IMG/VR virus record: IMGVR_UViG_3300045988_034549
Span: 1-19,307 of that record
Origin: a virus
Reading direction: 5' to 3' (one strand)
DNA: 19,307 nucleotides
The notes under the pieces are model-generated. The model searched no databases and was not told the DNA's origin. It was given only the letters and a program-made list of their open reading frames with translations. Position 1 is the stretch's first letter, and every line of letters starts with the position of its first letter. This document shows, one piece after another, positions 45-17,921 of the stretch. Made by a program: the position numbers and the translations under genes.

Positions 45-1763
45 ATGAAAACTTATTTAAATAATTTAATCAATGAATTACCTACTAACTGCTTATTTGA
101 CAAAGGTAAAGTAGGATGTGGTGGAACTTCAATGGCTTTAGAGTGTGATAAGCCTTATGTTATATGTGTTCCATTTGTAAGTTTAGTTGAGAATAAACTT
201 GCTCAATATCCTAATGAAAGACGTAAAGAGCCTATTTTTGGAGTTTATCAAGGTGTTACTAAGACAGATATTGAAGCTTATATATCTTCAGTTAAATGCC
301 CTAAAATCATTGTTACTTATAATTCTCTTTATAAAGTAATAGAAGCGGTAAATCCTAAAGATTATAGCCTATTAATTGATGAATATCATATACTATTTAA
401 TCAATATAGTCTTAGAAGAGATGCAATTAAAGATGTATTAAAGACATATAGTCTATTTAAAGAATATACATTTATGACTGCAACTCCATTAGAAGATGAA
501 TTTGTTTTAGATGAATTGTCTAAACTGCCATTAGTAAAACAAGAATGGGATGATGTTATTGAGACTAAAGTTCAGACTGTTAAATGCAAGAATGTAGAAG
601 CTTCCACAATTAAGCTTATAAATGGATTTTTAAGTGGGAATGTTGAAGGTAATGCTTATATATTTGTTAACTCTGTTGACTTTATAAAGAATCTTATTTT
701 AAAGGCTAAACTTACAGCAGATAACACAAGAGTAGTATATTCTAAGAATAATAGAACTAAACTGCCAATTCAGAATTCTTCAGTAAATGATGAACCTAAG
801 AAGATTAATTTGTTGACTTCTACTGTATTTGAAGGTTCTGATATTTATGATGAAAATGGAAGAATTATTGTAGTTAGTGATTCCTCTAAAGCTCAGACTC
901 TTTTAGATATATCTACTTCAATTCAACAGATTGCTGGTAGAATTAGAAATAGTAAATATTTAAATTGGATTACTCATCTTTATTCAGCCACAAGATATGC
1001 AGAGATAGATTATGATACATTTAAAAATAATACATTAAAGAATATTGAAGAAACAAAGATTGCAGTTGAATCATATAATCAGCTTCCAGAAGTAGCTCGT
1101 AAGAAGATTACAGACTTTACAAGTGACACATATATTCAAATTAATGAGGATTATACCTTTGAATTTGACCCAAATATGGCTAAAGTAGATATATTCAATT
1201 TTAAGGTTGCAAGAGGTTTATACTCTGTAAGAGTTAATCTTACTAATGAATATCTAAAGAATGGCTTTATAAAGGTTGCTGAATGTGAAGATAAATCTAT
1301 TAAGATAGACCTTGAAGCTCCTAGTAAGTCATTTCAGGAGCTTATTAAAGATGTAAGAGCTGAATGGGAAACTAAATTTAAAGTTGGAACTCCTATATTA
1401 AATGAAGCTCTAATTAAATATCCTTGGTTAAATGATGCAATTAATAAACTGGGATTTGAAAGAATGGCAACTTTGGGTTATTGCATTAAAGATATTAAAG
1501 AGGAGCTTGTTAAAATATCAGATAAAAATATGCCAAATAAGGTTGCCAAATTACTTACAAGAGATATTCAGAATGGTATGTTCTACAATTTAGCTTTATT
1601 GAAGAATAAGATTGCTGATGTATATAAGACTTTAGGTATAAAGAAAACTGCAAAGGCAACAGATATTGAACACTATTTTGAAGTTAGAAAATCAACTAAA
1701 ACTGAAAAGGATGTTAGAAGCAAAGGATACATTATTATTAGACCAAGATTCATATTTAAATAG
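45..1763 (+). CDS. SF2 (DExH-type) helicase, replication/early module
   Basis: Uninterrupted 572-aa ORF in the standard code. Motifs: Walker A-like GKVGCGGTS near the N-terminus, motif II LLIDEYH, motif III MTATP, motif V-like TSTVFEGSDI, motif VI QQIAGRIRN. All 4 Trp are TGG, there is no in-frame TGA, and the stop is TAG. The frame stays open from ATG 45 back to the window edge, so an upstream start cannot be excluded. Confidence 0.8.
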   Translation: MKTYLNNLINELPTNCLFDKGKVGCGGTSMALECDKPYVICVPFVSLVENKLAQYPNERRKEPIFGVYQGVTKTDIEAYISSVKCPKIIVTYNSLYKVIEAVNPKDYSLLIDEYHILFNQYSLRRDAIKDVLKTYSLFKEYTFMTATPLEDEFVLDELSKLPLVKQEWDDVIETKVQTVKCKNVEASTIKLINGFLSGNVEGNAYIFVNSVDFIKNLILKAKLTADNTRVVYSKNNRTKLPIQNSSVNDEPKKINLLTSTVFEGSDIYDENGRIIVVSDSSKAQTLLDISTSIQQIAGRIRNSKYLNWITHLYSATRYAEIDYDTFKNNTLKNIEETKIAVESYNQLPEVARKKITDFTSDTYIQINEDYTFEFDPNMAKVDIFNFKVARGLYSVRVNLTNEYLKNGFIKVAECEDKSIKIDLEAPSKSFQELIKDVRAEWETKFKVGTPILNEALIKYPWLNDAINKLGFERMATLGYCIKDIKEELVKISDKNMPNKVAKLLTRDIQNGMFYNLALLKNKIADVYKTLGIKKTAKATDIEHYFEVRKSTKTEKDVRSKGYIIIRPRFIFK

Positions 1764-2061: not shown

Positions 2062-2202
2062 ATGAAATACCAAACCTATAAAGTATGTATAAATGGAGTG
2101 TATTATGTATATGTAATACCAGAAAATAGTAAATTCTTAGTAGATTTACAAACTGGAGAATTAATACCTAAAGATGAGAAATTATTTGAGATAATGGAAT
2201 AA
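2062..2202 (+). CDS. small hypothetical protein (46 aa)
   Basis: ATG 2062 lies 1 nt after the previous TAA. TAA 2200..2202 closes MKYQTYKVCINGVYYVYVIPENSKFLVDLQTGELIPKDEKLFEIME. The terminator hairpin follows directly. Confidence 0.35.
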   Translation: MKYQTYKVCINGVYYVYVIPENSKFLVDLQTGELIPKDEKLFEIME

Positions 2203-2207
2203 ACAAA

Positions 2208-2240
2208 AAGGAGGGTTATTTGCCCTCCTTTTCTTTTTTA
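2208..2240. terminator. bidirectional rho-independent terminator between the convergent modules
   Basis: Perfect 8-bp stem aaggaggg (2208..2215) / ccctcctt (2223..2230) with a 7-nt loop. A T-run follows on the + strand (ttcttttttа-like tract 2231..2240). A T-rich tract (tttgttt) follows on the minus strand. It sits between the last + ORF (stop 2202) and the stop of the last minus gene (2241). Confidence 0.8.
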
Positions 2241-2810
2241 TTAAACATATCTTCACTTGAATCCTTTAGCTGTATTTGCTAATCCACCACATACTCTACT
2301 AATAGCTCCTCTATCAGTTCCTACAGATTTGGCTGCTTCTGTGCAACTTTCATACTCTTGAATAAAATTACCATCTAAATCATACTGAGCTACTTTACGA
2401 CATCTTTGTTTGTTATGAGCATCTACTTTAACTCTTCAAGATTCTGGGCAATTATGTTTCTTTCCCTTATTAGAATTAGACAGTTTCTTCTTTCATTCAG
2501 AATTAAATTTGACTCCGTAATTGCCTCCTTCTCCTCCAGGTTTCAAATTTAAACACATAGGATCAGTGTCCCATTTATCTCCAATTAGTTTGTATTCTAA
2601 TTTAGATAATTCATCTGCATTAGTGCAAGTTGCCAAAATAATCTTTTGGTATGCATTAGGGAATCTTTTGTAATAATTAGTAATAATCCTTCCTGATCCT
2701 TTATATGGATCTTTATTTATGTCTTTACCTCTATAAATCCTTTTCCCAATATAATACTTGCCTCTTAATGTACCTGCAGTTAAAATTATTTTATAACAAT
2801 AGTAAAACAT
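2241..2810 (-). CDS. GIY-YIG homing endonuclease with C-terminal DNA-binding domain (189 aa, 3 in-frame TGA)
   Basis: Track ORF 2493..2810 holds the GIY-YIG N-domain (YCYKI...KYYIGK). The same frame continues through TGA at 2493, 2436 and 2253 (tca on +) to TAA-TAA at 2241/2238. The read-through text is ...NSE-W-KKKLSNSNKGKKHNCPES-W-RVKVDAHNKQRCRKVAQYDLDGNFIQEYESCTEAAKSVGTDRGAISRVCGGLANTAKGFK-W-RYV. That is a typical endonuclease DNA-binding tail ending G-F-x-W-R-Y. Confidence 0.85.
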
Positions 2811-3262
2811 TATATAATAGTAAATTTCTGTCGTCTTTGCATTCCGTCTTTATTCTTTAATCCCAAGTGTATTCAACTTGCTATACCATTCTTAGGCTTT
2901 TCATATATCAACTGGTCTCAATTTAATTCTTCAATAGCTTCAGCAATCCAACTTTGGAATACTTTCATATTACCATTAATTGGAGATATATCTGCTGCAT
3001 ACCCTGTTAAATGAGCAGAAGTTGAAGATCCTCCCACTGCTTTATTAAGCTCCTTATTTCTAAAACCAGAGGAAATCCTGATGCCTGCGTTACCAAGCTG
3101 ATTGTCATCACAATACTTTGCCCATCTCTCTCTTATTGGGTCTAAAAGCTTCTCGACCAACTCTATCAGGTGCTCTGTTATACTCTCATCTGGAGTGTTA
3201 TCTATATGCTTAATTGAAGCAGTATCAGATCTTGTTAATTCTTCGAGTGTGAAATACTTCAT
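2810..3262 (-). CDS. peptidase M15 family (Peptidase_M15_3-like) peptidoglycan hydrolase, endolysin (150 aa, 2 in-frame TGA)
   Basis: Track ORF 2918..3262 contains SGFRNKELNKAVGGSSTSAHLTGYAADI (H-x6-D zinc motif). The frame continues through TGA at 2918 and 2873 as -W-DQLIYEKPKNGIAS-W-IHLGLKNKDGMQRRQKFTII. This restores the expected C-terminal W-x-H zinc ligand. Stop TAA 2810..2812 overlaps the next ATG (TAATG). Confidence 0.85.
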
Positions 3263-3420
3263 TATTTATATGAATTATGCAGTTTATAAAGATAAATAAA
3301 ATAGCACACTGCTCCAAATAACGTTAAACTAATAGTAATCCAAAAAGGAATTACTTTAATTAACAAAAATGCAATCATTAATAGTACAACTACTATTACA
3401 TATTTTAACCAATATTTCAT
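3262..3420 (-). CDS. small two-TM membrane protein, holin candidate (52 aa)
   Basis: ATG 3418..3420 to TAA 3262..3264 gives MKYWLKYVIVVVLLMIAFLLIKVIPFWITISLTLFGAVCYFIYLYKLHNSYK. There are two hydrophobic helices. It lies immediately upstream of the endolysin and is coupled to it by a TAATG overlap. It is too short for the ORF track. Confidence 0.55.
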   Translation of the reverse strand: MKYWLKYVIVVVLLMIAFLLIKVIPFWITISLTLFGAVCYFIYLYKLHNSYK

Positions 3421-3421
3421 A

Positions 3422-4078
3422 TTATATCTTATTTAAAATTATACTTATCTGTATTCCAACTCTTCTTAGATGTACTCAAGTATCATAAGGCATAGGTGTA
3501 TCACAGAATGATAAACCTAAAATGCCAATATCTTTATCCTCAGTCTTTAAATAAAATACTGCTATTTCATTCACTCCGTTGGATTTAAATGCATAATATA
3601 ATCTTGGATCATCTGCTTCTAAACTATCTATATTACCAAACCATCCATCATTCTTAGAAAACTCTATAATTGAAGTATAGTCAGATAACAGGAAGTCTTT
3701 ATAATGGCTACTTACAGATCGTATTCCTGGTTTAACTTCCTCGGCATTCATTACTCCATAAGTAAACGGAAGTCCTCCTAATCCAGTAGTTCCATTATGA
3801 TATTCAATAACCCAAGCTCTATCAGCATTTGTGCTTTGAAGCAATTCTTTAAGCTTATATTTAATCTTTAAAGTTGCTTCATTTCTTGCAATAGTTTTAG
3901 AATTGTGAGTTTGTTCAATATAGGTTACAACCTTATTATAAACAATAGAGGGATTAAGTGTAATAACCATTACATAGGATATAAATATTAATCCAATCCC
4001 TGCTTTAAATATCTTTAGTAATCCATATTTATCTACTCATTCTAATACCTTTCCAAACCAGTTTAATTTATTTTCCAT
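3422..4078 (-). CDS. N-terminally membrane-anchored protein of unknown function, lysis-cassette position (218 aa, 2 in-frame TGA)
   Basis: Track ORF 3476..3970 extends in frame at both ends. Upstream it runs to ATG 4076..4078: MENKLNWFGKVLE-W(TGA 4037)-VDKYGLLKIFKAGIGLIFISYV-MVITLN. Downstream it passes TGA 3476 (...PYDT-W-VHLRRVGIQISIILNKI) to TAA 3422..3424. It has one predicted TM helix followed by a soluble domain of about 170 aa. Confidence 0.7.
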
Positions 4079-4503
4079 TACATATTATCAGAACAAGTAC
4101 CCAGAGTATTGTCTACAGCTAAATCAACTCTAACAAATACTCCAGTACAAATATCTTTGAACTTCTGATAAAATGGAGTAAAAATTAAAGGATAAGAAAT
4201 ATCAACTTCTGGATATTGGTTATTAAATCGGTTAATTATATTAGTTAATGCTAATATTCCAGCTGATTGCTCTTCAAGCTGATTATTATCAGTTTCATCC
4301 CATCTTGCTATAAAATAGAGATTTAAAGAGTAAGTAATAGTATCCTCATCCATATTAAATGTATTTGGAGTTATATAAAATACATTATATTCAATAGTTG
4401 GGATACTATTAAGTTCATATATATCCTTACTTCCTACAAAATTAATATTGGGTTCTTCAAGAGCACAAGCTTTTAAATTGTTTATTAATTCAAAATACGT
4501 CAT
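4078..4503 (-). CDS. hypothetical virion/connector-region protein (141 aa)
   Basis: This is track ORF 4078..4605, trimmed to ATG 4501..4503 (MTYFELINNLKACALEEPNINF...). That ATG lies 1 nt after the upstream gene's TAA (4505..4507). There is no in-frame TGA. Any function is inferred only from its position after the portal. Confidence 0.6.
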   Translation of the reverse strand: MTYFELINNLKACALEEPNINFVGSKDIYELNSIPTIEYNVFYITPNTFNMDEDTITYSLNLYFIARWDETDNNQLEEQSAGILALTNIINRFNNQYPEVDISYPLIFTPFYQKFKDICTGVFVRVDLAVDNTLGTCSDNM

Positions 4504-4504
4504 C

Positions 4505-5188
4505 TTACTTACTCTTTTTATTGTTATCACTTGAAGGGAAATCATAAGCTCTTTGCAGAGGACCTTCACAAGAATTATATCTCCAACCTTTACCTCTAGC
4601 TCCACCTAACCAAATAGTACAAGATGAACTTGAATACATATTTGGATACATATCTTTAAGAGGTTTATAAGAATACAATTCAGGAAAATCATTATAATAT
4701 GTAATTACCCAATTTTGTAATCTCGTTTTAAAGAAATCTGCTTTATCTCTATAATATTTCTTAATAAGATTAACTTGGCTAATATCAGAAGTTAAATCTT
4801 TCTCATCATCAGTCCTCATAACCCCAAAGTTACTAAGCTTAAACGAAATAGGTATAGTAATCTCACTTAATACTTGATAAAGTAAATAAGGCTGAATATA
4901 GTAATCTAGCAATTCTTTATATCTATGATTTTCTGGGTCATCTATTGAAGTAGGATCATAAATAGGAGGTTCTATTGGATGAACTGGTTTATTTGGATCT
5001 TTTCAATCAATTACTAATTTCTGAATCTTTTCTAAGAGCTTAGTTCCAATTAATGACTGAAGCTCAATATCTTGTGCAAGTTTAATTGCTGACTGAAGAT
5101 ATTTACCAGAAACATTATTGTCTAAATTGGATTCTGATTTTATATAATCTTCAGATATTAATAGTACATTTCTATAATTATTTTCCAT
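4505..5188 (-). CDS. putative head-tail adaptor/connector protein (227 aa, 1 in-frame TGA)
   Basis: Track ORFs 5003..5188 and 4505..4912 are in the same frame. They are separated only by TGA 5003..5005 and an open stretch: ...KLVID-W-KDPNKPVHPIEPPIYDPTSIDDPENHRYKELLDYY... The N-terminal text (SGKYLQSAIKLAQDIELQSLIG) resembles gp6-like adaptor N-termini. This is motif memory only. Confidence 0.65.
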
Positions 5189-6270
5189 TATTCAACTTGT
5201 TTAGTATCAGCTTCATTAAGGCTAAATGGTGAAATTGTGATTGAATTCTGCATTCCAAAGATCTTATCAAATGAATCACAAATCTCTTTCTGAATAGGTC
5301 TAATCATAGTTCTATTATAAAGCTTGAATGAAGATTCAAATTCTTGCTCATTAAAACCAGTTGAATCTGAGTTAATTCCAAATAAGTTAGGATTAGCTCT
5401 GAAGGCACAGAATATTTGATCTCTGGTTCTCTCAGATAATGATTGATATTTCTCATCAAAATCATCAGAATCTAATCTTTCAATAGTAGTCTTATTTGCC
5501 TCATCTGCATTATATGAAATCAATATTCTGCCAGCATTCTGATAACCAGAGAACTTCTCATTAATATTCCTCTCAATCTCCTCTCTAATTTCATCTGTAG
5601 GTTCCCCATTATTAAAGTTAATAATAAGATTACCCATAAATCCATTATTGATGTTATTTAAATGGAATTCATTAATATTTTTCTCAGTTTCGCAAGATAA
5701 AATAGCAGCTCCATAAACAGGAATAGGATATACTCCTCTTGTTATATAACCTTTATTATAAAATATACTAGCTGGATTTTCATCCCCAGCTCCAAATTTT
5801 GGATATTTTATAGCTTTTACAGACCAAGCTGTCCAATCAGTTGCATAATATAATACATCATTCTTTTCGCTTGACCTTACATTCATAAAATCAATATGAT
5901 AGATCTCTGCAACTCTTCCAATCATATCTCTAATTACTTGGATAGCATAACCTCCAAATATCATCTTATCAATAGTGATTTTTCTCATTATATCAACTAT
6001 TGTTTCCCCTTTTTTATTTACAACTACTTCAAATCCTGGAGCATTACATTTAACATCATTACCAACAATAAAGTCAGCAGAACCATTAATAATGGATTGG
6101 AGAGTGGCAACATTTAAATATAAATCCCATAGATATAACGGATATTTGTTATCTTCTCCTCACATTACATAATCTTTTCCTCTTACTTTAGTTTCTGTAG
6201 GTAATACGATATTACTTGCAATAAATGGATCAATAGCACTTAACTGAACTTTTGTTTTATTTTCGCTCAT
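5188..6270 (-). CDS. portal protein (360 aa, 1 in-frame TGA)
   Basis: Track ORF 5188..5988 has a portal-like core (GFMGNLIINFNNG...FSGYQNAGRILISY...DQIFCAFRANPNLFGI). The frame extends upstream through TGA 6160..6162 to ATG 6268..6270: MSENKTKVQLSAIDPFIASNIVLPTETKVRGKDYVM-W-GEDNKYPLYLWDLYLNVATLQSIINGSADFIVG. This gives the W-G-x-D-N-x-Y-P N-terminal portal motif. Confidence 0.85.
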
Positions 6271-6805: not shown

Positions 6806-7822
6806 TTATGCTGACGCTAAAGTTCAGTTTTTAGATGTAGCTAATGATTTCTGTTCTTCAGTAAGTGCATTATAAACATCTGCTGCAAATGTAATAGTTT
6901 GAGATACTTCTCCAGTTAAATCAGCAGCTTTATTTAAAATGTTATCAATAGCTGCACTATTTAACGACTGGAGTAAAGATAAATTTAATTTCGCTCTTAA
7001 ATTTATAATACCTTCCATATCAGTTATTGATGTATTTGGAGATTCCCAACTATAAAAAGGCCAATTATTAAAGGACTGACCTTCATTTACACCTGTTAAA
7101 TCTCATTCTGGCAAAGTTGTAATTGTATCAGGTAAATAACTATAAGTACCTCCACATTCAAGATTAATAGATGATCCTACTAATTCAAACTTAATATCTG
7201 GGAGAGTAGTAATAGTGGATGTTAAATTGGCAAAAGTGGCATTAAACACAACATACGGAGTATCATTTTCTTCATCTCTAATAATTATATGATTGCATAC
7301 AACATTAGAAGAATTAAACATTTGACTTAAATCATATCAAGCAGTATTAGTTTGTAGTATAATTGTATCTAATGTTAAAGCATTAGCATTAAAACTACTA
7401 AACATATTATTGCCATCGCGTATAGTAATTTCCTGTGGGAAATCTATTTGATTTATTTTAGCATTACTCAACATACCCGAACAATCGTAATTTAAATCTG
7501 TATTTCACATAGAAAACAGATTTATATATGCATTAGGAGACTGCATATGCGAAAAAAAATTTCTCGTACTTGTAAAATCAGGTAAATCAAAGATAATCTG
7601 ATTTACTTGATTATCAGTAGGACTAGAATATGCAAATGTTAATCCATAATCATTTAAATTAATCTTTCCTCCACCACCTCCAGAAATCTGTCCTATCTTA
7701 TCTGCATAGCTTCTAAAGGTATCGGAATCTGATACAGCAACACCTTTAGCTACAATAGCATCTTTAATGGCACTCTTAGTACCTTCAAGATACGTTAATT
7801 TATCAGAAATTGTATTTGCCAT
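6806..7822 (-). CDS. DUF285/BspA-like repeat tail fiber or receptor-binding protein (338 aa, 4 in-frame TGA)
   Basis: Track ORFs 7505..7822, 7103..7321 and 6824..7018 share one frame. I checked every intervening codon and the only interruptions are TGA at 7505, 7337, 7103 and 6824. Fused text: ...NLFSM-W-NTDLNYDCSGMLSNA...TNTA-W-YDLSQMFNSS...TTLPE-W-DLTGVNEGQSFNNWPF...EEQKSLATSKN-W-TLASA, ending at TAA 6806. The N-terminus (MANTISDKLTYLEGTKSAIKDAIVAKGV) looks like a phage-fiber N-terminus. Confidence 0.8.
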
Positions 7823-9636: not shown

Positions 9637-12249
9637 TTACTCTACAATTAAATATTGAGTATTTGGATCTTTGCTTGAAATAGCATCATATTCGGACTGA
9701 GTTACCACAAGAATAGTATGAACTTGTGGTTGAGTTCCACTTCCATAAGTAACTGGATTAGAAACACTCTCAATATCTATATTTCCACTACCTAACAAAC
9801 TTTCTCCATTAACTGTCTTGATATTTGTTCCGCTAACTAAAGTATCTTGTTTATTTCCTAATCCTGCATTTAATTCAGTTTCCGTAACATATTCATCAGG
9901 AATAGAAGTTAAAAATCCACTATCATTAGTAAGCTCAGATGTCTTAGTTGGTATACCTAAATCTGATAAACTCTTATTACCACTAAGTTCAACAGAATTA
10001 ATCTGAGGTTTATTTGTTAACTGAGTATAGTCAGTAGTCCCTCCACCTCCAGATATTTCAAGATTACCTTCTCCTAAAATACTTTCACCATTAATAGTCT
10101 TTATATTAGTCCCAGAGACTAATTGCTCTTGATAACTATGATAACTAGTATCTGCTGATACTCCAGTTGGAGTAATAGTAGTTTGAACTACAGTATGATT
10201 AGCTGTAGTACTTTCAAAATGGAAAGTAGCTTGAATATTTTCTCCTGAAACAAAACATACTTCTGGAGCTGCTATATCACCATAACCTAGAATATTTACA
10301 TAATAAAGCTCAAATGGTGTTTTATTAGCTATAGCATTCTTAACAGCAGCGAAATCTCCAGAAAGATGAGTAGTGGAATTTATAAATAGAAATGGAATAT
10401 TAGAACCACTTTCAATTTCTATATTACCTTCTCCAAGTAAAGACTGACTATTGATTGTTTTGATATTAGTTCCACTTACAAGCAAATCTTGCTTAGTAGC
10501 CATCTCTTTATCAAGAGAATCAATCTTATCTCCATCTTCTTCTTGTTTTGTTTTAATAATTGATATATCTGAAGTATTAGTTGCTACTTGAGTAGATAAA
10601 GATTCTACCACAGAAGAATCAGCTTTACCAGCAAGTTCTGTTTTTGTTGCATAATCTCCTACAGGCTGTTTAGTAGCAAGCTGCTCATCGACATAAGTCT
10701 TATCTGCTTTACCTGCTAAATCTCCAGAAACCTCTGCTTCAGTTACAAAGTTAGAATCATTAGTAAGCTCACTAACTTTAGTTGGAATATCACTCTTTAA
10801 AGCATAATCTCCTTTATCTTGTTTTGCATCAATCTTACTTTGTAAAGAAGATCTTAGAGTCTCAATTTCCTCATTAACTGAATCGTTAGTTGCATAATCA
10901 CCAACTGGTTGGTATCCAGATAAATCTACAGATAATTGTGATTTATCTTCATTAAAAGCTAATGGAGCTTGTGGAGTAAATACACCTTGCTTAGCTGCAA
11001 GTTTCTCATCTACTTCATCTTTAGTATATCCTTTATTAGTAAGATCAACCTCAGTAACTTTAACAGTCATATTACCATTATTTACTAAGATTGCATTAAT
11101 AACTACTAATACACCATTATCTTGAAAATAATAGCCATATAAATCAATAGTTTCGGGATGTTCAATAGTTGCAACAGGAATAACTATAATATCACCTTTA
11201 TATGTAATCTGGCAGAATAAATAGAAGTCCAGATTAGTTCTAATAAAGTCATAGATATGTTTCTGTCTTACAGGATCATTCTCATCTAAATTAAGTAAGA
11301 AATGATTCTCAAAAGCAGAGATTACATTATCTATAATAGATATATTCTTTCCTGCTGTAAGCGTTTCCTGTTTTGAAGCTATCTCTTTATTAATAGCTGT
11401 ATTTAAAGCATCAATTTCAGCTTTGGTATATTTATCTGCTAATTGTGCATATAGAGGACCATTAACAATACCAGCTTGATTAGTCTCTGTATTATATATT
11501 GGAAGTTCAACTGCTTTTCCAGTTTGATTGCCAAATACAGGAGCTAAAGTAACTTTAGATGGGACTGATTGAATATTAATGGCAGGTACAATTGAAGCTG
11601 CTCCAGATAATTCAGTTCCATTTAAAGATGGTTTGTTACGAATAGTATTATAATCTGCAGAAATAGTATTCTCTTCAATTACTATACCGTCACCTTGGTT
11701 TAATTTATTCTGTTTAGAATTTAATGCACTTTCAGTAGCTTCTTTTGTAAGATAATTATCTTCAACTCATTTTTCAGTAGCATATCCATCTAAGCTACTA
11801 ATAAACCCACTATCATTAGTTAATTGTGAAGTTTTTGTTGGTATCTCAGATTTATCGGCTTTATTGGTAACTGCATCTGAAATTTCAGTTGTAACCTCTT
11901 CTTTAGTTGGATAATCAGCTAATCGTTCAGTTATCTGATTATCAATATTTTCAGCACTTGGAATAGTACTCTTTATTTGCTCTAACTCAGAATTAATAGT
12001 AACAATATCTTCAGATGACGCTAATCCCAACTCTTCTGAAGTCATATTACCATTTAACTCAATGCCATTGATTTCAGGTTTATCCTGAAGATCAAAATAG
12101 CTATTAGTAGCTAACTGAGAACCATCCATAACCTTAACTTCATCATCCTTGTCAATAACAATAACTTTAGTCACATTTGACTTATCTATTGTTTCGACTT
12201 CAAGGACATTAAGATAAGGAAGAATTGTCTTTTCAGTTTCGTTTGCCAT
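9637..12249 (-). CDS. long modular tail fiber protein (870 aa, 1 in-frame TGA)
   Basis: Track ORFs 11767..12249 and 9637..11070 are in the same frame. I translated 11071..11766 codon by codon. It is open and has no ATG/TTG/GTG, which explains why the track has no ORF there. The only interruption is TGA 11767..11769 (...LDGYATEK-W-VEDNYLTKEATESALNSKQNKLNQGDG...). Fiber motifs recur throughout. Confidence 0.85.
9769..9849 (-). repeat. in-frame coding repeat, copy 3 (QDTLVSGTNIKTVNGESLLGSGNIDIE)
   Basis: One of three diverged copies of the L-V-S-G-T-N-I-K-T-(I/V)-N-x-x-S-(L/I)-L-G-x-G-N-(I/L)-(E/D)-I module within the fiber gene. Confidence 0.85.
10054..10128 (-). repeat. in-frame coding repeat, copy 2 (EQLVSGTNIKTINGESILGEGNLEI)
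   Basis: Same module as at 9769..9849 and 10411..10491. A Gly run (SGGGG) follows it. Confidence 0.85.
10411..10491 (-). repeat. in-frame coding repeat, copy 1 (QDLLVSGTNIKTINSQSLLGEGNIEIE)
   Basis: Same module as above. The nucleotide similarity is visible, for example ccttctcc(a/t)a...actttc / agactg...attgat / attaat. Confidence 0.85.
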
Positions 12250-12339: not shown

Positions 12340-12864
12340 TTAAGCACCTACAACACTTTGAATAGCTTCAGCACTCAACTCATAAGGATATGATTCAGAG
12401 TCAGTAGCTAAAGTCAGCGTATAAGCGTTCTGATCACCTTTTGCAGTACCAGTAACACCCGTACCAGCGGAAGCGCTTACATAGTCATCTTTTCCTAAGA
12501 ACCAGTATTTGCCATTAGAATCTTCTACAACAACTACAAGTTGTCCAATAGAAAGAGCAGCAATCTCGATTCTTTTCTTAGTCTCCATCTTTGTAAATAC
12601 AAGAGCAAGCTCATTACTTACATAGTTGGTTCCTGCAGTTTCGTCAACGTTCAATGTTGAGGTTAGAGAACCAGTACCTTTGCGGAATTGGTAATTATAC
12701 CATTTAGCATCTGCTTCAAGAGTAATAGCTGAGATTTGATTAGTCTCATCATCTACAGTTACACTCTTAACATTATCGTACTGAGTAATCCATACCTGTT
12801 TGATACCACCAAGCGAAGATTCGCAATCCAGGGTAATACCAGCGATAGTTATTAAACAAGCCAT
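12340..12864 (-). CDS. abundant structural protein, possibly major tail (tube)-like (174 aa)
   Basis: Intact ORF directly after the major capsid gene and before a strong terminator. Its G+C is visibly elevated, like the capsid gene. All 3 Trp are TGG. The text (SIGQLVVVVEDSNGKYWFLGKDD...GTGVTGTAKGDQNAYTLTL) resembles tail-tube-type proteins. This is motif memory only. Confidence 0.45.
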   Translation of the reverse strand: MACLITIAGITLDCESSLGGIKQVWITQYDNVKSVTVDDETNQISAITLEADAKWYNYQFRKGTGSLTSTLNVDETAGTNYVSNELALVFTKMETKKRIEIAALSIGQLVVVVEDSNGKYWFLGKDDYVSASAGTGVTGTAKGDQNAYTLTLATDSESYPYELSAEAIQSVVGA

Positions 12865-12902
12865 ATAATTTCAATCTTATTTAAAGTTAAACTCTATTGA
12901 AA

Positions 12903-13808
12903 TTAGGCTTTGGCACCAAGAACTACCTCATCAGGGAATGCAACCTGTACGCCAGCGTTAAATTCAATAGCTAATCTAAATTCGCGGAAATCTTGTGAAT
13001 ACCACAATTCAAACTTCTCTTCATCGTTCATCATATCGCAACCATAGAAGAAGTTCTTATCTAACTGACCAGCAACAATCTTATCAGTTCCATTAAGACC
13101 ATTAACAGCGATTACTTTAACCTGCGAACCAGGAAGCATAATCTCACCATTAAGATTCTCACCACTATAGTGGTAGTAGTTCTTAGCAACTAACTCCTGG
13201 ATAAATTTACGGAAAGTATCACTGCCAACTAAGATAGAAGCACCATCCAGAACCTTCTCAGGAATAGCGTTATAAACAGCCATAATGTCATCATAAGCAG
13301 ATGCTCCAGTAATTTCTACATCAACAACCCCATCAGCAGCACCAAGGATCTTTAACAGACCATCAAAATACTTCAGGTTATTTGTTTCAGAAGTAGTATC
13401 ACCCTGCCAAATAGCAGTCTCAATAGCAGCCTTAACATTCTCAACTACTGCATTTACGAAATCCTCTTCAAAAGGAAGCGTCTTCTGACCAGCAGCTACT
13501 CGTACTTGATACTGAGTCCAGTATTTAAGCATCTCTTTATCACAATATGCCATATTGATCTTAATATTACCAGTAGCCAGAATTCTCTGAGAAAGAGTCT
13601 GAGTTCCAGCTTCATCCCAACCACAAGCTAGGCCATCGCCAAACTGAATAGCAGTTGATAACAGGTTAAGAGCAGCACTAGTTTTGATGTCAGTTTGAAG
13701 ATTGAACAACGAAGCACTCTTAGCCTTTAATACAGCCTCTTTAATAAGAGGAAGACGTCTCTGCTCTACATAAGCAGTAAGACTAGTCATTACAGGACTA
13801 TTTGCCAT
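12903..13808 (-). CDS. major capsid protein, HK97-fold type (301 aa)
   Basis: Intact ORF placed after the protease and scaffold genes. Capsid-like text is present (AIETAIWQGDTTSETNNLKYFDGLLKIL, ...FELWYSQDFREFRLAIEFNAGVQVAFPDEV). All 4 Trp are TGG. G+C is visibly higher than in flanking genes. Confidence 0.85.
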   Translation of the reverse strand: MANSPVMTSLTAYVEQRRLPLIKEAVLKAKSASLFNLQTDIKTSAALNLLSTAIQFGDGLACGWDEAGTQTLSQRILATGNIKINMAYCDKEMLKYWTQYQVRVAAGQKTLPFEEDFVNAVVENVKAAIETAIWQGDTTSETNNLKYFDGLLKILGAADGVVDVEITGASAYDDIMAVYNAIPEKVLDGASILVGSDTFRKFIQELVAKNYYHYSGENLNGEIMLPGSQVKVIAVNGLNGTDKIVAGQLDKNFFYGCDMMNDEEKFELWYSQDFREFRLAIEFNAGVQVAFPDEVVLGAKA

Positions 13809-13830
13809 AATTTTATAAATAATTTAATAA

Positions 13831-14433
13831 TTAACCAATAAAGTTTTTAAGCTTTTTATCAATAACAGGATTACCAGTCATTATTGAAGCTTTGCCTTCT
13901 ATCTGTTCCTCAGCTGAAAATGCAGCACTCATTTTGCTCATCTTTTCAACCGTCTTTTCTGTAGCTTCAGATTTACCCTCTAATTCAGCTACTTTCTTAA
14001 CAAGCTTATCAACAATGTCATAAAGCTCATTAATTTCGCGATGAATTGCATCAATTGCATCAGTTACAGTTTCTTTGTCACCATCAGTAGCTACTTCAGG
14101 ATCAACTGGCTCTTCAGCAGTTTCTACCTTGCGTTTTCCACAAGCAGCATCAACTTCTGCTTTAGCTGCTTCTTCTGGATCAACCTCAGCTTTAGGATCA
14201 GTTACAGACTCTACTTTACCGTCTTTAACAACAATCGTCTTTCCATCCTCAGTTACATACTCACCATCCTCAGCAGGTTTGTATTCTCCGTTCTCATCCT
14301 GAACATATACATCCATACCAGCGCGTAAGTCTTCATCTGAATCCCAAGTAAGTACTGCCTTATCAGTTTTAATATCACTGAACTTTGCAAGCATTTTAGC
14401 CAATTCAAGCTTGATTCTTGTGAATTTGCTCAT
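13831..14433 (-). CDS. scaffolding protein (200 aa)
   Basis: Acidic, Lys/Glu-rich protein with a coiled-coil-like C-terminal half (INELYDIVDKLVKKVAELEGKSEATEKTVEKM). It is located between the prohead protease and the major capsid protein. Confidence 0.7.
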   Translation of the reverse strand: MSKFTRIKLELAKMLAKFSDIKTDKAVLTWDSDEDLRAGMDVYVQDENGEYKPAEDGEYVTEDGKTIVVKDGKVESVTDPKAEVDPEEAAKAEVDAACGKRKVETAEEPVDPEVATDGDKETVTDAIDAIHREINELYDIVDKLVKKVAELEGKSEATEKTVEKMSKMSAAFSAEEQIEGKASIMTGNPVIDKKLKNFIG

Positions 14434-14446
14434 TTAATTAATAATT

Positions 14447-15040
14447 TTAATGTTTAACTCTTTTTATCTTCTTAATCATATTAAGGATCTCTTTTATTTC
14501 GTCATATTCATCAGACTTTCTCTCTAAAGTAAATAAACCTTCAATTGAGAACCCTTTAAACTTACCAGCTTTAATTGCATCTCAAATAACTTGATTATCT
14601 ACTTTATAAGTGGCAAATAAAGAACCATCAGGAACATCCTGGAATTCAACTGGAGATATTCCTCTATTAATATCCTTTACATAGATTTCTTGTAGAGTAA
14701 TTCCATTTAAATCAGAATCTTCTAAATGTTCAATATTTACATCTGTAGTTCTTTTATCATACAGCATCTTCTCTGCCATTTTACGAAGAGTTTCCTTATC
14801 ATACTGTATGTAGTATTCTCCGAGTTTCTCATCTCGTCTGAAAATTGGAGTATCACTTAACATTAAGCAAGATGTTACTAAATGCTTATCTTCATCCATC
14901 GAGAACTTCTGAGAATTACTAAAAGCAACCCAGTTAACTTGTGTAGCTGGTTTACTTGTTAAAGCAACATATTCTATTCCATCACAATCATCAGTAATCA
15001 CTACCTGAAATAATGGAAGATCATTATAAGTAATTTCCAT
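14447..15040 (-). CDS. prohead protease, XkdF-like (Peptidase_S78_2-type) (197 aa, 1 in-frame TGA)
   Basis: Track ORF 14582..15040 continues through TGA 14582..14584 as ...YKVDNQVI-W-DAIKAGKFKGFSIEGLFTLERKSDEYDEIKEILNMIKKIKRVKH, ending at TAA 14447. The W-x-x-(I/V)-K-x-G-x-x-x-G-F-S-I-E-G segment is the characteristic C-terminal motif of this family. Confidence 0.75.
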
Positions 15041-15152: not shown

Positions 15153-17921
15153 TTAGAATGAAGCATTAGATTCAGTAACTGCTACCTTAGTTTGAGCTGA
15201 AGTAATGTCAGATTCAACAACATAACACTTAACAGGTTCATTTAAAAGGTCAGTTTCTTTATCTCCAAGTAAGTTTCGAGTATATTCAACAGGAGCTGTA
15301 TTTAAAGCAGCTGGTGCTGCCACTGCTGCAGATGCTCCACTCACTCCACTTGCACCTGATTCATCTACTTCTCAAATCTTTTTAACATTTGCAATACCTG
15401 CAACTACTGCGGCTGCAGCTGCAGCAATACCTAAAGCAGGACCTACAATAGGAATTCCTGCCATAGCAGAGTATGCGCTATTTGCTGCTGAATAAGTGTC
15501 AATTAATGCTTGAGCAGTAGCAAATCCTTTACCTACTTTACTTTCCTCTCCCCAAATACTTGCCATACTTCCTGCAATGCTTGAAGCTACAGATAAAGTT
15601 CCCTGTAAAGCTTGCTGCCTTGCTTTTTGAAGATTTTGATAAGCCTGAGTATTTGCCTGTTCATTAGCTAATTGAGCATCTGATAAGGCCATATTATTCT
15701 CAGTAAGAGTTCTTTGAATTTCCTCTTTTTGTTCAGCAGTTAATTGTTCATTCATTAATTGCTGACTTAATAAGGCATTCTCTTGCTCTATTCTACCTTG
15801 AGTTAATGAGAGTAAGTTGTTATTGTATTCAATTTGAGCATTGTATTGATTCTCTAAGTCCTCTCTACTCTGATATGTAAATTTATAACCAGTCCCTTCA
15901 TAATCTCCAGCCAATCCAAATGCTTTCGATATACCTTGAGTATAAGTAGTCTGAAAGGTCTGCTCTCTTGGCTCTCTCAAATTACTTGTAGAAGATAAAT
16001 CTCTAATCCTTTTTAATTCAGACTGTAGATCATTCCAAGCTTTATCTGCATCTGCTTTACGCTTAGCTTCTTCATCAGCTCTAGCTTTATCTCTAATCTT
16101 TTTAAGTTCTTCCTGATGCCAAGCTTCTACCTCTTCAATTCCCCTATTATACTTAATAGCTAATGCTAATAGTCTAATATATTCATCTTCAAGTTCATCT
16201 ACTGGGTCTTTATCCTCTAATCTCTTTTGAAGCCATTCATCAAATTCATTTATTACCTTCTTAGCTTCAGTAGTGTTCTTTGTAATAGTTGGAATATTAA
16301 AGAACCCACCATACTTTTTATTAGTATCTGCTACATCCTCAAATAGCTTTTTAAGCCTTTTCTCAATGTCTTTATTTAAATCATCCAACTGTTTATAAGT
16401 ATTCTCTTTATTTTGCTTTGTGTACTCATAAATTGTATTTGAATAATCTTTTCAGAACATTGCTGTAGCTTTAAAAGCCTGCCAAGCAGATGCCTCTCCA
16501 AAACTTGTATCAGAAATTTGATTCTCCAGTTCAGTACGTTTATTTAAATACTCCTCATAAAGCTTAATTGCAGCCTGTTCAATAGCCTGAGCTTTTGCTC
16601 TTGCAGTTAATGCTTCTACATAATTACCAGTATTATTTACAAACGCATCTTCTGCAGTCTTTACATCAGTGATATTTAAACCAGTCTCTTTAATCTTATC
16701 TGAATATTGCTCTATAAACTTACGCTTAGCATCTGCAGAATCTCCAACCCTTTCGTAAGCTATTTGTAACTCTCTAAAGATAGCTATAGATTTAGAAGCA
16801 ATCTGATTAGTAGTATCTGTAATAGACTTTCTAAATTCAGCAGCCTCCTTTTCAGCTGATTTTATTGAGGATATATACTCTATTATCTTATTAATAGCTA
16901 ATCCAATAGCTGTAGCTAATGCAATTCATACAGTTACATTACCAATAGTTTTAAGTGCAGTTTTAACTTTACCTACTCCAGAAGCAGCTTGTTCTGAAGC
17001 TTCAGCCATTGCTTTCTGAGCCTCTGCCCCTTTTCGCAAAGTTGGAATGCCTTTTTCTACATTTTCCTTTAATTCAGCAAGATCTACACCTAAACGTTTA
17101 GCAGCTTTCTGCATTCTCTCTGCTGGAGTTCCAGTCTCTTTTGCTGCTTCCTTTAAAAATTCAGCAACTGTAGTAAATGTAGGTTTTACTTCTTCAAAGG
17201 ACTTTTTTGCAGTTTCTCCTAATTTACCTATAATCGGAATCGTATTAGATACACTCTTATTAGTAGCAGATATTTCAGCAGGAGTGCCCATTACTCCTTG
17301 AATCATACCTCCTTTAAAATTAATATTGGTGCCTTCTAAATCCTTGACTACTTTAGAGATATTACCTAATTCAGTTCCAACATTACCAACAGATGTGCCA
17401 ATGCCATTAAGCTTAGATGCATCAATCTGATTAAGATTTTTGGCAGCATTATTCAACCCTGTATTAAATGGAGAGATAAAATCAGTTAATTTCTTAAACC
17501 AATTACCTAAAGTAGGCAATTCTTCTAATAAATCTTTTATACCTCCAATACCTTGTACTAATGCAATAGATGACTGTAACTTAACCATTACTTTAGTTAA
17601 ATCTTCAGATTCTTTCCCAAATAAAGTAATGGCAGCTGTTGCAGCTCCATATCCACTGGCCAAACCAGTGGATATTTTAGCTACACTTTCAAACCTTTGA
17701 GCAGTAGTTCTTGAAGATCTTGCTATCTGCTCATTAATTTTATTGAATTCTGATTGTCTCTTACCAAGTAATGAAAGAGTTTCATTATATTCCTTAGTAC
17801 CAATCTCTAAATCATTCAGCGAATTAGTTAATGCATCAATATCTTTCTTTAAAGAGTTTATTGACTTATTACTTGACTTAGTATCAATACTAATAACCTT
17901 TTTAATTTCTGTTTGTGCCAT
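15153..17921 (-). CDS. tail tape-measure-like protein (922 aa, 3 in-frame TGA)
   Basis: Track ORFs 16926..17921, 15372..16388 and 15153..15344 share one frame. I translated 16389..16925 and 15345..15371 codon by codon and the only interruptions are TGA at 16926, 16452 and 15372. TMP-like features are present: an N-terminal coiled coil, TAQRFESVAKISTGLASGYGAATAAITLFG, the hydrophobic IALATAIGLAINKII right after TGA 16926, and a Gly/Ala-zipper C-terminal segment GIPIVGPALGIAAAAAAVVAGIANVKKI-W-EVDESGASG... Confidence 0.8.

What the first reader, a model, noticed from the sequence alone, without database searches (positions are those of the whole stretch)
2810..4078. The lysis cassette can only be made if TGA is decoded
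The M15 endolysin carries two in-frame TGAs (2918, 2873). The second lies just before the C-terminal His that completes the zinc site, so termination at either TGA would give an inactive enzyme. The membrane-anchored protein upstream (3422..4078) has two more (4037, 3476). The three genes are translationally coupled by TAATG or short junctions.

Inference: lysis is gated by availability of a TGA-decoding tRNA. This matches the published hypothesis that recoding regulates lytic genes. Here it is directly visible at a catalytic residue.
Basis: partly seen in the sequence, partly recalled or inferred. Interest (0 to 1): 0.65.

Follow-up and report, generated by a model that had tools for sequence, protein, structure and literature searches.

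The report
TGA-as-tryptophan gut phage lysis genes
The window is part of a ~31 kb gut phage that reads the stop codon TGA as tryptophan in most of its genes, so its cell-wall-cutting enzyme needs TGA decoding, but so do its packaging and tail genes, and nothing singles out lysis as the gated step.

Summary
The M15 endolysin (2810..3262, minus strand) has in-frame TGAs at codons 115 and 130. The upstream membrane protein (3422..4078) has them at codons 14 and 201. The genes are joined by TAATG or 1-nt junctions. TGA means Trp: endolysin codon 130 aligns with an invariant Trp, two residues before the invariant third zinc ligand His132. Termination at either TGA would therefore remove a zinc ligand.

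TGA is an ordinary Trp codon across this genome. Eleven of 20 window genes carry it, and coding fraction rises from 0.71 (code 11) to 0.96 (code 4). The lysis cassette is not enriched (4/11 Trp codons against 20/55 elsewhere). The 52-aa holin candidate has no TGA in any of 16 variants. One recoded relative has a TGA-free endolysin. No TGA-decoding tRNA, release factor or synthetase was found in the window or in 42 related loci.

The real bias lies elsewhere. Head genes and a 572-aa divergent gene avoid TGA. Tail fibres, homing endonucleases and the membrane protein prefer it. Indirect evidence points to a Bacteroidota host, which would use the standard code.

This is a new member of the known class of TGA-recoded gut phages. 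How it decodes TGA is unexplained.

The parts
3422..4078 (-). 218-aa protein with an N-terminal transmembrane helix and a C-terminal alpha/beta domain (possibly GAF-like or LuxR-ligand-binding-like). It is the first gene of the cassette and has in-frame TGAs at codons 14 and 201.
   Evidence: Code-4 ORF and translation. Only 14 homologues were found, all in this phage lineage. The AF2 model is low confidence (pLDDT 63). Foldseek matches TraR, SdiA and GAF domains at E about 4e-4 and TM 0.4-0.47. Family TGA share is 86/151.
4037..4039 (-). In-frame TGA, codon 14 of the membrane protein (Trp).
   Evidence: This column alternates TGA and TGG among relatives (20 against 7). W14 is invariant in alignment A4.
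3476..3478 (-). In-frame TGA, codon 201 of the membrane protein (Trp).
   Evidence: TGA in all 27 unique family sequences. W201 is nearly invariant in A4.
3262..3420 (-). 52-aa protein with two hydrophobic segments (holin candidate). It has no TGA and two TGG.
   Evidence: Translation. No Pfam or PHROG hit. 0 TGA of 31 Trp codons in 16 unique variants. Its stop overlaps the endolysin start as TAATG.
2810..3262 (-). 150-aa Peptidase_M15_3 endolysin (LAS-fold zinc peptidase).
   Evidence: Pfam PF08291 52.4 bits. PHROG 894 endolysin. 861 homologues. An AF2 model of a 93%-identical homologue has pLDDT 96. The best PDB match is 1LBU, a zinc DD-peptidase, at E=3.7e-5.
2918..2920 (-). In-frame TGA, endolysin codon 115.
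   Evidence: It aligns with W, F or Y in homologues. It is TGA in 4 and TTC/TTT in 14 of 18 unique relatives.
2873..2875 (-). In-frame TGA, endolysin codon 130. It aligns with an invariant Trp, two codons before the third zinc ligand.
   Evidence: W130 is invariant in 34 homologues. It is TGA in all 22 close-family variants but TGG in recoded relatives L114, L119 and L120.
2867..2869 (-). CAC, His132, the predicted third zinc ligand. The other two are H84 at 3013..3011 and D91 at 2992..2990.
   Evidence: Invariant H84, D91 and H132. H84 and D91 lie in the stretch that matches 1LBU in the profile search.
2241..2810 (-). 189-aa homing endonuclease with a NUMOD1 domain, TAATG-coupled to the endolysin. 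It has three in-frame TGAs (2495, 2438, 2255) and is the last gene of the operon.
   Evidence: Pfam NUMOD1 and PHROG 314 homing endonuclease. Family TGA share is 92/137.
2205..2233 (.). Bidirectional intrinsic-terminator hairpin (GGAGGG...CCCTCC with T runs on both sides). It closes the long minus-strand operon.
   Evidence: Sequence. ARAGORN at a lowered threshold mistook it for a tRNA.
45..1763 (+). 572-aa gene on the opposite strand. It is TGA-free, ends in TAG, and has Walker-A-like GCGGTS and DEYH motifs. It is given as the contrast: a gene that can be translated in the standard code.
   Evidence: 1 TGA of 110 Trp codons in 24 variants. No Pfam, PHROG or PDB match. The motifs were read from the sequence, so the helicase-like label is an inference.

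Best explanation
The four TGAs are ordinary tryptophan codons of a ~31 kb tailed gut phage whose genome is written in genetic code 4 (TGA=Trp; TAA, rarely TAG, as stops).

The lysis cassette has four genes: a membrane-anchored protein, a 52-aa two-TM holin candidate, an M15 zinc-peptidase endolysin and a hitch-hiking homing endonuclease. It sits at the 3' end of one long minus-strand operon. Its genes are chained by TAATG overlaps and the operon ends at an intrinsic terminator.

The endolysin needs both TGAs read as Trp to reach His132. The same dependence holds for the terminase, portal, tape measure, tail and tail-fibre genes. Any code switch would therefore gate most of virion production, not lysis specifically.

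Within the family, TGA behaves as a synonymous Trp codon that is under-used and unevenly placed. It is nearly absent from the head module, the 572-aa divergent gene and the holin candidate. It is preferred in tail fibres, homing endonucleases and the membrane protein.

Shown: the code, the Trp identity, the zinc-triad geometry and the TGA distribution.
Inferred: a standard-code Bacteroidota host.
Unknown: the agent that decodes UGA.
For: Code 4:
- Coding fraction is 0.709 (26 genes, 12 ending in TGA) under code 11 and 0.959 (21 genes: 20 TAA, 1 TAG) under code 4.

TGA means Trp:
- Opposite in-frame TGAs, standard-code relatives have W 81 times, Y 32, L 15, F 11 and G 5. This is the same profile as opposite TGG.
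- Endolysin W130 is invariant.
- 48 of 75 conserved Trp columns are TGA/TGG polymorphic, the same rate as A/G pairs of Lys, Glu and Gln (60-69%).

Genome-wide use:
- The window has 24 TGA and 42 TGG, spread over 11 of 20 genes.
- The family has 1016 TGA of 2838 Trp codons in 939 unique genes.

No lysis enrichment. The endolysin ranks 12th of 28 families by TGA share and the holin candidate is at 0.

Head avoidance: TGA is the majority codon at 0 of 17 conserved Trp columns in head genes against 25 of 58 elsewhere, p=0.0004.

Labile endolysin sites.

Operon end: terminator at 2205..2233.

Host evidence (all indirect):
- Integrated capsid relatives on long contigs are all Bacteroidota.
- The nearest cultured portal relatives are Nonlabens and Bacteroides phages.
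- Endolysin relatives occur in Bacteroides and Prevotella phages and next to Mfa_like_1 genes.
- 0 of 19 genes have a Shine-Dalgarno-like motif, against a 12% background. Low Shine-Dalgarno use in Bacteroidota is from my own knowledge.

The pattern matches published TGA-recoded phages (Borges et al. preprint 10.1101/2021.08.26.457843).
Against: - The decoding agent was not found, so the claim that UGA is efficiently read as Trp during infection rests on comparative sequence evidence only.
- The host is inferred, not shown. The closest capsid hits in genome bins are short contigs labelled Clostridia or Lachnospiraceae. These may be mis-binned phage but could point to Firmicutes.
- Some signals fit the lysis-regulation idea. 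The membrane protein of the cassette is TGA-rich (0.57, q=8e-4). Two of the only three Trp columns fixed for TGA lie in the cassette (post-hoc hypergeometric p of about 0.04, my own arithmetic). Every close-family endolysin keeps at least one TGA (22/22).
Confidence: 0.8

Rival explanations
1. The host uses the standard code, and a TGA-decoding tRNA that becomes available late lets the endolysin and the membrane protein be completed. Recoding would then act as a timer or safety catch for lysis.
For: - The endolysin and the membrane protein cannot be completed without UGA decoding.
- The membrane protein is TGA-rich.
- W130 and tm218 W201 are fixed as TGA in the close family.
- The 572-aa divergent gene, and two small genes next to the divergent promoter in relatives, are TGA-free. 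This fits the idea that early genes are written in the standard code.
- A standard-code host is likely.
- The hypothesis is published.
Against: - No tRNA was found in the window, in 42 related loci, or in a permissive Rfam scan of a whole relative genome.
- TGA is equally needed for the terminase, tail, tape measure and portal genes.
- Small upstream genes carry TGA in every variant: 17/17, 20/20 and 18/18.
- The holin candidate has no TGA.
- There is no enrichment of the cassette.
- A recoded relative has a TGA-free endolysin.
- Head genes, which are late, avoid TGA, so the split is not early against late.
Confidence: 0.12
2. The host itself reads TGA as Trp, as Mycoplasma-type organisms do. 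The phage would then simply share its host's code and no regulation would be involved.
For: - The phage has no suppressor tRNA or other code-change gene.
- It has low G+C, about 30%.
- It has no TGA stops.
- Most code-4 phages in GenBank infect Mycoplasma or Spiroplasma (PMC11210395).
Against: - TGA makes up only 31% of conserved Trp codons, whereas A-ending Lys, Glu and Gln codons make up 62-64%.
- TGA is excluded from head genes (p=0.0004).
- Syntenic relatives use no TGA at all (L037) or use TGA as a stop (L098, 6 of 23 genes).
- No capsid, portal or endolysin relative points to Mycoplasmatota; they point to Bacteroidota and Gram-negative hosts.
- An M15 endolysin and a holin make little sense for a wall-less host.
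Confidence: 0.07
3. TGA is read as glycine (code 25) in an Absconditabacteria or Gracilibacteria host.
For: Such hosts and their phages exist in human microbiomes and are low in G+C (PMC10746230; Borges preprint).
Against: Residues opposite TGA in standard-code relatives are W 81 times and G 5 times. Endolysin codon 130 is an invariant Trp. TGA and TGG alternate at the same columns.
Confidence: 0.01
4. The TGAs are real stops, meaning decayed genes, sequencing errors or programmed truncation, and the short products are what is made.
For: Gene callers using code 11 produced 127- and 129-aa versions of this endolysin in public databases.
Against: - The sequence after each TGA is conserved, including invariant H132.
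- The same pattern occurs in dozens of independent assemblies.
- Code 4 restores full-length portal, tape measure and tail proteins.
Confidence: 0.01

Closest known systems
TGA-to-Trp (code 4) recoded gut phages, described as Agate, Jade and some crAss-like and Topaz-type clades (Borges et al., preprint 10.1101/2021.08.26.457843; published in Nat Microbiol 2022)
   Same: - In-frame TGA aligns with Trp, and TGA has been given up as a stop.
- Recoded, TGA-free and standard-code relatives are interleaved.
- 55% of window genes are recoded, within the 26-71% range reported for phages of standard-code hosts.
- The families richest in TGA are a homing endonuclease, tail proteins and a TM protein of the lysis cassette. 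These are the same three kinds reported for Agate phages.
- No suppressor tRNA was detected, as in 65% of their code-4 genomes.
   Different: - The genome is small (~31 kb), whereas the TGA-recoded Agate lineage they analysed is ~127 kb.
- There is no tRNA, release factor or TrpRS module anywhere.
- The endolysin itself is at the genome average for TGA, and the holin candidate is TGA-free.
- The whole head module, although late, avoids TGA.
LAS-fold zinc peptidases of MEROPS family M15: Streptomyces albus DD-peptidase (1LBU), VanY, LdcB, and M15 endolysins of Bacteroides, Prevotella, Achromobacter and Moraxella phages
   Same: - Pfam PF08291 hit.
- H-x6-D...H triad with the third His on a late beta strand.
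- Single-domain enzyme of about 150 aa without a wall-binding domain, as in phages of Gram-negative hosts.
   Different: Two of its four Trp codons are TGA. It is only 41-46% identical to endolysins of cultured phages. Bond specificity is unknown.
Phages of code-4 hosts (Mycoplasma and Spiroplasma phages)
   Same: They use TGA as Trp without needing their own suppressor tRNA (PMC11210395).
   Different: Here TGA is under-used and excluded from abundant proteins. Relatives use other codes, and every host clue points to Bacteroidota.

Membership tests
Peptidase M15 (Pfam PF08291, LAS fold) endolysin | Significant match to the family profile | tested here: met
   PF08291 scores 52.4 bits against a cut-off of 23.2. 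PHROG 894 'endolysin' scores E=4e-29.
Peptidase M15 (Pfam PF08291, LAS fold) endolysin | H-x6-D...H zinc-binding triad | tested here: met
   H84, D91 and H132 are invariant in 34 full-length homologues. H84 and D91 lie in the stretch that matches 1LBU in the profile search.
Peptidase M15 (Pfam PF08291, LAS fold) endolysin | LAS (DD-peptidase / hedgehog N-domain) fold | tested here: met
   The AF2 model of P0001 (93% identical) has pLDDT 96. Foldseek gives 1LBU at E=3.7e-5, then LdcB, VanY and hedgehog N-domains.
Peptidase M15 (Pfam PF08291, LAS fold) endolysin | Muralytic activity that depends on the third His | not testable with these tools
   Needs expression of TGG-substituted and truncated forms.
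Code-4 (TGA=Trp) recoded phage | Gene calls improve under code 4 | tested here: met
   Coding fraction rises from 0.709 to 0.959 and median gene length from 142 to 218 aa.
Code-4 (TGA=Trp) recoded phage | In-frame TGA aligns with Trp in homologues | tested here: met
   W 81 against G 5 opposite TGA. Invariant W130. 48 of 75 Trp columns are TGA/TGG polymorphic.
Code-4 (TGA=Trp) recoded phage | TGA not used as a stop | tested here: met
   Stops under code 4 are 20 TAA and 1 TAG.
Code-4 (TGA=Trp) recoded phage | Host uses the standard code, which separates 'recoded' from 'shares the host's code' | tested here: inconclusive
   Only indirect Bacteroidota signals. No spacer match or integrated copy of this lineage. 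The 148-kb contig gave no host flank.
Recoding as a lysis regulator (Borges model) | Code-change machinery in the phage (suppressor tRNA, release factor or aaRS) | tested here: not met
   No tRNA. No release factor or aaRS by Pfam or PHROGs.
Recoding as a lysis regulator (Borges model) | Lysis genes preferentially use the recoded codon | tested here: inconclusive
   Met for the membrane protein (0.57, q=8e-4). The endolysin is at 0.42 against a family mean of 0.36, ranking 12th of 28. The holin candidate is at 0/31. For the cassette as a whole p=0.15 to 1.0.
Recoding as a lysis regulator (Borges model) | Early and replication genes are free of the recoded codon | tested here: inconclusive
   The 572-aa gene has 1/110, and two small promoter-proximal genes have 0/15. 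The next genes downstream carry TGA in every variant. Expression timing is not known.
Holin-endolysin lysis cassette | Small membrane protein encoded next to the endolysin | tested here: met
   The 52-aa protein has two hydrophobic stretches (about residues 7-22 and 24-45) and its gene overlaps the endolysin start. This rests on inspection only; it has no family match.
Holin-endolysin lysis cassette | Spanin genes, expected for a Gram-negative host | not tested
   No lipobox ORF was noticed near the cassette, but no systematic search was made.

The most novel reading that the evidence does not exclude
This lineage may switch the code without any tRNA. A TGA-free early protein would antagonise host RF2. 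Candidates are the 572-aa divergent gene product and the small promoter-proximal proteins seen in relatives. The host's own tRNA-Trp(CCA) would then read UGA by wobble.

This would explain four things: why the reassignment is to Trp, why no tRNA gene exists in a 31 kb genome, why TGA is under-used (31% against about 63% expected from other A/G codon pairs), and why it is excluded from the most abundant virion proteins, since near-cognate decoding is slow.

That attenuated RF2 is enough for native tRNA-Trp to insert Trp at UGA has been shown in engineered E. coli (PMC11903333). Nothing here tests it for this phage.
Probability: 0.12. Interest if true: 0.8.

Novelty: new member of a known kind. 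Interest (0 to 1): 0.33.

Why it matters
TGA-recoded phages are much rarer in gut data than TAG-recoded ones. One survey found 21 against 5706 contigs (PMC9610469). Another found 46 against 666 vOTUs (PMC11210395). The proteomic validation I found covers only TAG-to-Gln (PMC9523058).

This is a small and abundant lineage, with more than 50 related contigs. It has no code-change genes. Recoded, TGA-free and TGA-stop relatives sit side by side. That makes it a compact system for asking how a phage gets UGA read as Trp in a standard-code host.

For annotation, it shows that code-11 gene calls in public databases truncate this endolysin at residue 127 or 129, just before a zinc ligand.

It does not add independent support for the claim that recoding times lysis.

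Tried and rejected
1. Suppressor tRNA. ARAGORN at default settings found none in the window or in 42 loci. Rfam at gathering threshold on the window, and at E<=5 on a whole relative genome, found nothing tRNA-like. ARAGORN at a lowered threshold gave scattered hits inside ORFs. One recurrent intergenic hit at 2156..2236 is the terminator hairpin.

2. The idea that the TGA before His132 is a conserved checkpoint. It is fixed in 22 close variants. However, it is TGG in recoded relatives L119 and L120, and L114 has a TGA-free endolysin. Rejected.

3. Code 25 (Gly). Rejected.

4. Host flank on the 148-kb IMG/VR contig. The contig repeats the phage genome like a concatemer and gives no host DNA.

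5. GenBank phage matches. None at nucleotide level or with the capsid protein. Only distant portal hits were found.

6. The base after the codon. TGA is followed by A more often and by T less often than TGG is (chi-square p=0.004). The effect is too weak and too confounded to use.

7. Function of the 572-aa gene. No Pfam, PHROG or PDB match.

8. Fold of the membrane protein. The model is low confidence, so the GAF/LuxR-like match is only a lead.

Full report
**What is in the sequence.**

Read on the minus strand, the region holds a chain of genes.
- Gene 4078..4545 ends in TAATG, which starts a 218-aa gene (3422..4078).
- That gene's TAA is followed after one base by the ATG of a 52-aa gene (3262..3420).
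- The 52-aa gene's TAA overlaps the ATG of a 150-aa gene (2810..3262).
- The 150-aa gene's TAA overlaps the ATG of a 189-aa gene (2241..2810).
- A bidirectional terminator hairpin at 2205..2233 closes the operon.

The 150-aa and 218-aa lengths hold only if TGA is read through. Under the standard code the 150-aa gene is listed as a 114-aa ORF.
- 2920..2918 and 2875..2873 in the 150-aa gene (codons 115 and 130);
- 4039..4037 and 3478..3476 in the 218-aa gene (codons 14 and 201).

**The endolysin and its zinc site.**

The 150-aa product matches Pfam Peptidase_M15_3 (52.4 bits, cut-off 23.2) and PHROG 894 'endolysin'. It has 861 database homologues.

In an alignment of 34 full-length homologues, H84, D91, W130 and H132 are invariant. 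A profile of the family matches the Streptomyces zinc DD-peptidase 1LBU over the stretch that contains H84 and D91.

An AlphaFold model of a 93%-identical homologue is confident (pLDDT 96). The model's best PDB match is 1LBU, followed by LdcB, VanY and hedgehog N-domains, which together define the LAS fold.

Codon 130 (TGA) therefore stands for an invariant Trp, and the third zinc ligand H132 (2869..2867) lies two codons later. Stopping at either TGA gives a protein without that ligand. Public gene calls of 127 and 129 aa for close relatives are truncations of exactly this kind.

**TGA is a Trp codon throughout the genome.**

- The window's coding fraction is 0.709 under code 11 (26 genes, 12 of them 'ending' in TGA). 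Under code 4 it is 0.959 (21 genes: 20 TAA stops, 1 TAG).
- Eleven of 20 genes carry in-frame TGA, 24 in all against 42 TGG. They include the portal, the tape-measure-like protein and tail and tail-fibre proteins (annotations).
- Opposite in-frame TGAs, standard-code relatives have W 81 times, Y 32, L 15, F 11 and G 5. This is the same profile as opposite TGG, so the meaning is Trp, not Gly.
- The window belongs to a family of ~31 kb genomes with more than 50 contigs in IMG/VR.
- In near-complete relatives the large terminase and several small upstream genes also carry TGA.

**Is the lysis cassette special?**

I compiled 939 unique genes from 64 related loci plus the window. TGA makes up 1016 of 2838 Trp codons (0.36). 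Shares by gene family:

| Gene family | TGA / Trp codons | Share |
|---|---|---|
| Endolysin | 29/69 | 0.42 |
| Membrane protein (3422..4078) | 86/151 | 0.57 |
| 52-aa holin candidate | 0/31 | 0.00 |
| Tail-fibre-like 9637..12249 | 19/20 | 0.95 |
| Homing endonucleases | 92/137 | 0.67 |
| Tail-fibre-like 6806..7822 | – | 0.64 |
| Several small upstream genes | – | 0.5-0.87 |
| Major capsid protein | 0/140 | 0.00 |
| Scaffold-like protein | 0/23 | 0.00 |
| 12340..12864 | 1/87 | 0.01 |
| 572-aa plus-strand gene | 1/110 | 0.01 |
| Protease | 4/53 | 0.08 |
| Portal | 18/145 | 0.12 |

Statistical tests:
- In the window, the cassette has 4 TGA of 11 Trp codons against 20 of 55 elsewhere (Fisher p=1.0).
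- At conserved Trp columns, TGA is the majority codon in 5 of 9 cassette columns against 20 of 66 elsewhere (p=0.15).
- The head module has 0 of 17 against 25 of 58 elsewhere (p=0.0004).

With the test used in the published work (Mann-Whitney per family, BH-corrected), the endolysin ranks 12th of 28 families. The holin candidate is significantly depleted.

The real contrast is therefore between two sets of genes. Head genes, the divergent 572-aa gene and the holin candidate are TGA-poor. Tail, fibre, packaging and homing-endonuclease genes and the membrane protein are TGA-rich. The contrast is not between lysis genes and the rest.

**TGA behaves as a synonymous codon.**

Conserved Trp columns are TGA/TGG polymorphic in 48 of 75 cases (64%). 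That is the same rate as AAA/AAG, GAA/GAG and CAA/CAG at conserved Lys, Glu and Gln columns (60-69%). However, the A-ending form makes up 31% for Trp against 62-64% for the others.

Only three Trp columns are fixed for TGA. Two of them are endolysin W130 and membrane-protein W201. I tested whether W130=TGA is a conserved checkpoint by fetching more distant endolysins:
- Recoded relatives L119 and L120 have W130=TGG, with TGA at W105 and W115.
- L117 has TGA at codons 86 and 130.
- Recoded relative L114 has an endolysin with three TGG and no TGA.

The sites are labile, and recoding of the endolysin is not obligatory.

**Relatives and code state.**

Recoded and non-recoded relatives are interleaved. 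The syntenic relative L037 (67% capsid identity) has identical gene calls under codes 4 and 11. It has no in-frame TGA and no TGA stop (19 TAA, 3 TAG). L098 uses TGA as a stop in 6 of 23 genes. This matches the published picture: loss of TGA as a stop, then reappearance as a sense codon, with code changes over short evolutionary distances.

**Who decodes TGA?**

- ARAGORN finds no tRNA in the window or in 42 related loci that together cover whole genomes.
- Rfam finds nothing at gathering threshold in the window. It finds nothing tRNA-like at E<=5 in a whole relative genome.
- At lowered ARAGORN thresholds, the only recurrent intergenic hit is the terminator hairpin.
- Pfam and PHROGs show no release factor, synthetase or tRNA-modifying enzyme.

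The published survey likewise found suppressor tRNAs in only 35% of code-4 phages.

**Host.** All the evidence is indirect.
- Capsid relatives integrated in long contigs are all Bacteroidota: a 647-kb 'Bacteroides sp.' contig, plus Chitinophagaceae, Mucilaginibacter and Leeuwenhoekiella. Closer hits labelled Clostridia or Lachnospiraceae are phage-sized or shorter contigs in bins.
- The nearest cultured portal relatives are Nonlabens and Bacteroides phages.
- Endolysin relatives are in Bacteroides, Prevotella and other Gram-negative phages. They also occur inside contractile-injection-system loci flanked by Mfa_like_1 genes.
- One relative carries an integrase with Arm-DNA-bind_5 and Phage_int_SAM_5 domains.
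- None of 19 genes has a Shine-Dalgarno-like motif upstream, against 12% in random segments. This fits Bacteroidota, a point that rests on my own knowledge.

A wall-less code-4 host would not call for a holin and a peptidoglycan peptidase. I put about 0.8 on a standard-code host, most likely Bacteroidales.

**Most likely mechanism.**

The cassette is a conventional late lysis module at the end of a long operon. Its expression is set by transcription and by translational coupling. The whole phage depends on efficient UGA-to-Trp decoding by an agent not yet identified. That dependence applies to most virion, packaging and lysis proteins alike.

Under-use of TGA and its exclusion from the most abundant proteins suggest that UGA decoding is costly or slow.

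One speculative way to get Trp at UGA without a tRNA gene is antagonism of host RF2. In engineered E. coli with attenuated RF2, native tRNA-Trp inserts Trp at UGA (PMC11903333). Nothing here tests that.

**Comparison with the literature.**

The finding is an instance of the published phenomenon (Borges et al.). The TGA-richest families here are a homing endonuclease, tail proteins and a TM protein of the lysis cassette. These are the same three kinds reported for TGA-recoded Agate phages.

This lineage differs in several ways. The genome is small. It has no code-change genes at all. The head module and the holin candidate are TGA-free, and the endolysin is at the genome average. I could not place it in one of the named clades.

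**Verdict.**

This is a new member of a known kind, of modest interest. The interest comes mainly from the unexplained tRNA-less decoding and the sharp two-class distribution of TGA.

Noticed in passing
window 3422..4078 (-): The membrane-anchored protein upstream of the holin candidate has only 14 homologues in 5.8 billion proteins, all in this phage lineage. A low-confidence model (pLDDT 63) of its C-terminal domain resembles GAF and LuxR-type autoinducer-binding domains (TraR, SdiA, RhlR; E about 4e-4, TM 0.4-0.47). A ligand-sensing lysis regulator is conceivable but unsupported.
   Followed up: partly
window 12340..15040 and 4078..6270 (-); 45..1763 (+): Head-module genes (protease, scaffold, capsid, 12340..12864, portal and two connector-like genes) and the 572-aa divergent gene almost never use TGA for Trp across the family, although A-ending Lys, Glu and Gln codons stay common. 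TGA is the majority codon at 0 of 17 head Trp columns against 25 of 58 elsewhere, p=0.0004.
   Followed up: yes
window 2241..2810 (-); L010, L059, L002 and other loci: Several GIY-YIG or HNH homing endonucleases with NUMOD domains sit at different positions in different relatives: after the endolysin, between scaffold and capsid, after the portal, and before the membrane protein. As a group they have one of the highest TGA shares (92/137).
   Followed up: partly
L123, L124 (relatives of the endolysin, protein P0112): A 51%-identical M15_3 protein is encoded inside a contractile-injection-system locus (sheath, tube, VgrG-like, PAAR, gp25) flanked by Mfa_like_1 fimbrial genes on contigs up to 212 kb. 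It is presumably a Bacteroidales CIS with a peptidoglycan-cutting component.
   Followed up: no
L037 (IMGVR_UViG_3300029905_000019): A syntenic relative with 28% G+C uses no TGA at all, neither in frame nor as a stop (19 TAA, 3 TAG). It would be readable under either code.
   Followed up: partly
L017 + L079 (IMGVR_UViG_3300045988_175865, 148,631 bp): The part of this long 'viral' contig that I could read (33.5 kb) repeats the same tail-fibre region at both ends. It looks like a concatemer of ~31 kb genomes rather than a prophage in host DNA.
   Followed up: partly
window 2205..2233: A strong bidirectional intrinsic terminator lies between the convergent minus-strand operon and the plus-strand genes. 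ARAGORN at low stringency miscalls it as a tRNA-Ser.
   Followed up: yes
window 17921..19307 (-): The ORF called 17921..19198 is the C-terminal part of a tail protein of about 1144 aa that runs off the window end. It has five in-frame TGAs in 425 codons.
   Followed up: partly
L080/L010 genome, about 4.2-4.9 kb in the reconstructed relative (outside the window): An 88-aa HTH protein (HTH_50 above cut-off, sigma-70 region 4 just below it) follows a 102-aa protein. I suspected a split sigma-like regulator. It carries TGA in 13 of 16 variants, so a likely regulator upstream of the late genes also needs TGA decoding.
   Followed up: partly
L118, L121, L122: More distant, non-recoded relatives of the endolysin sit next to serine recombinases or a tyrosine integrase. 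The wider group therefore includes temperate elements, whereas no integrase was seen in the ~31 kb recoded family.
   Followed up: no
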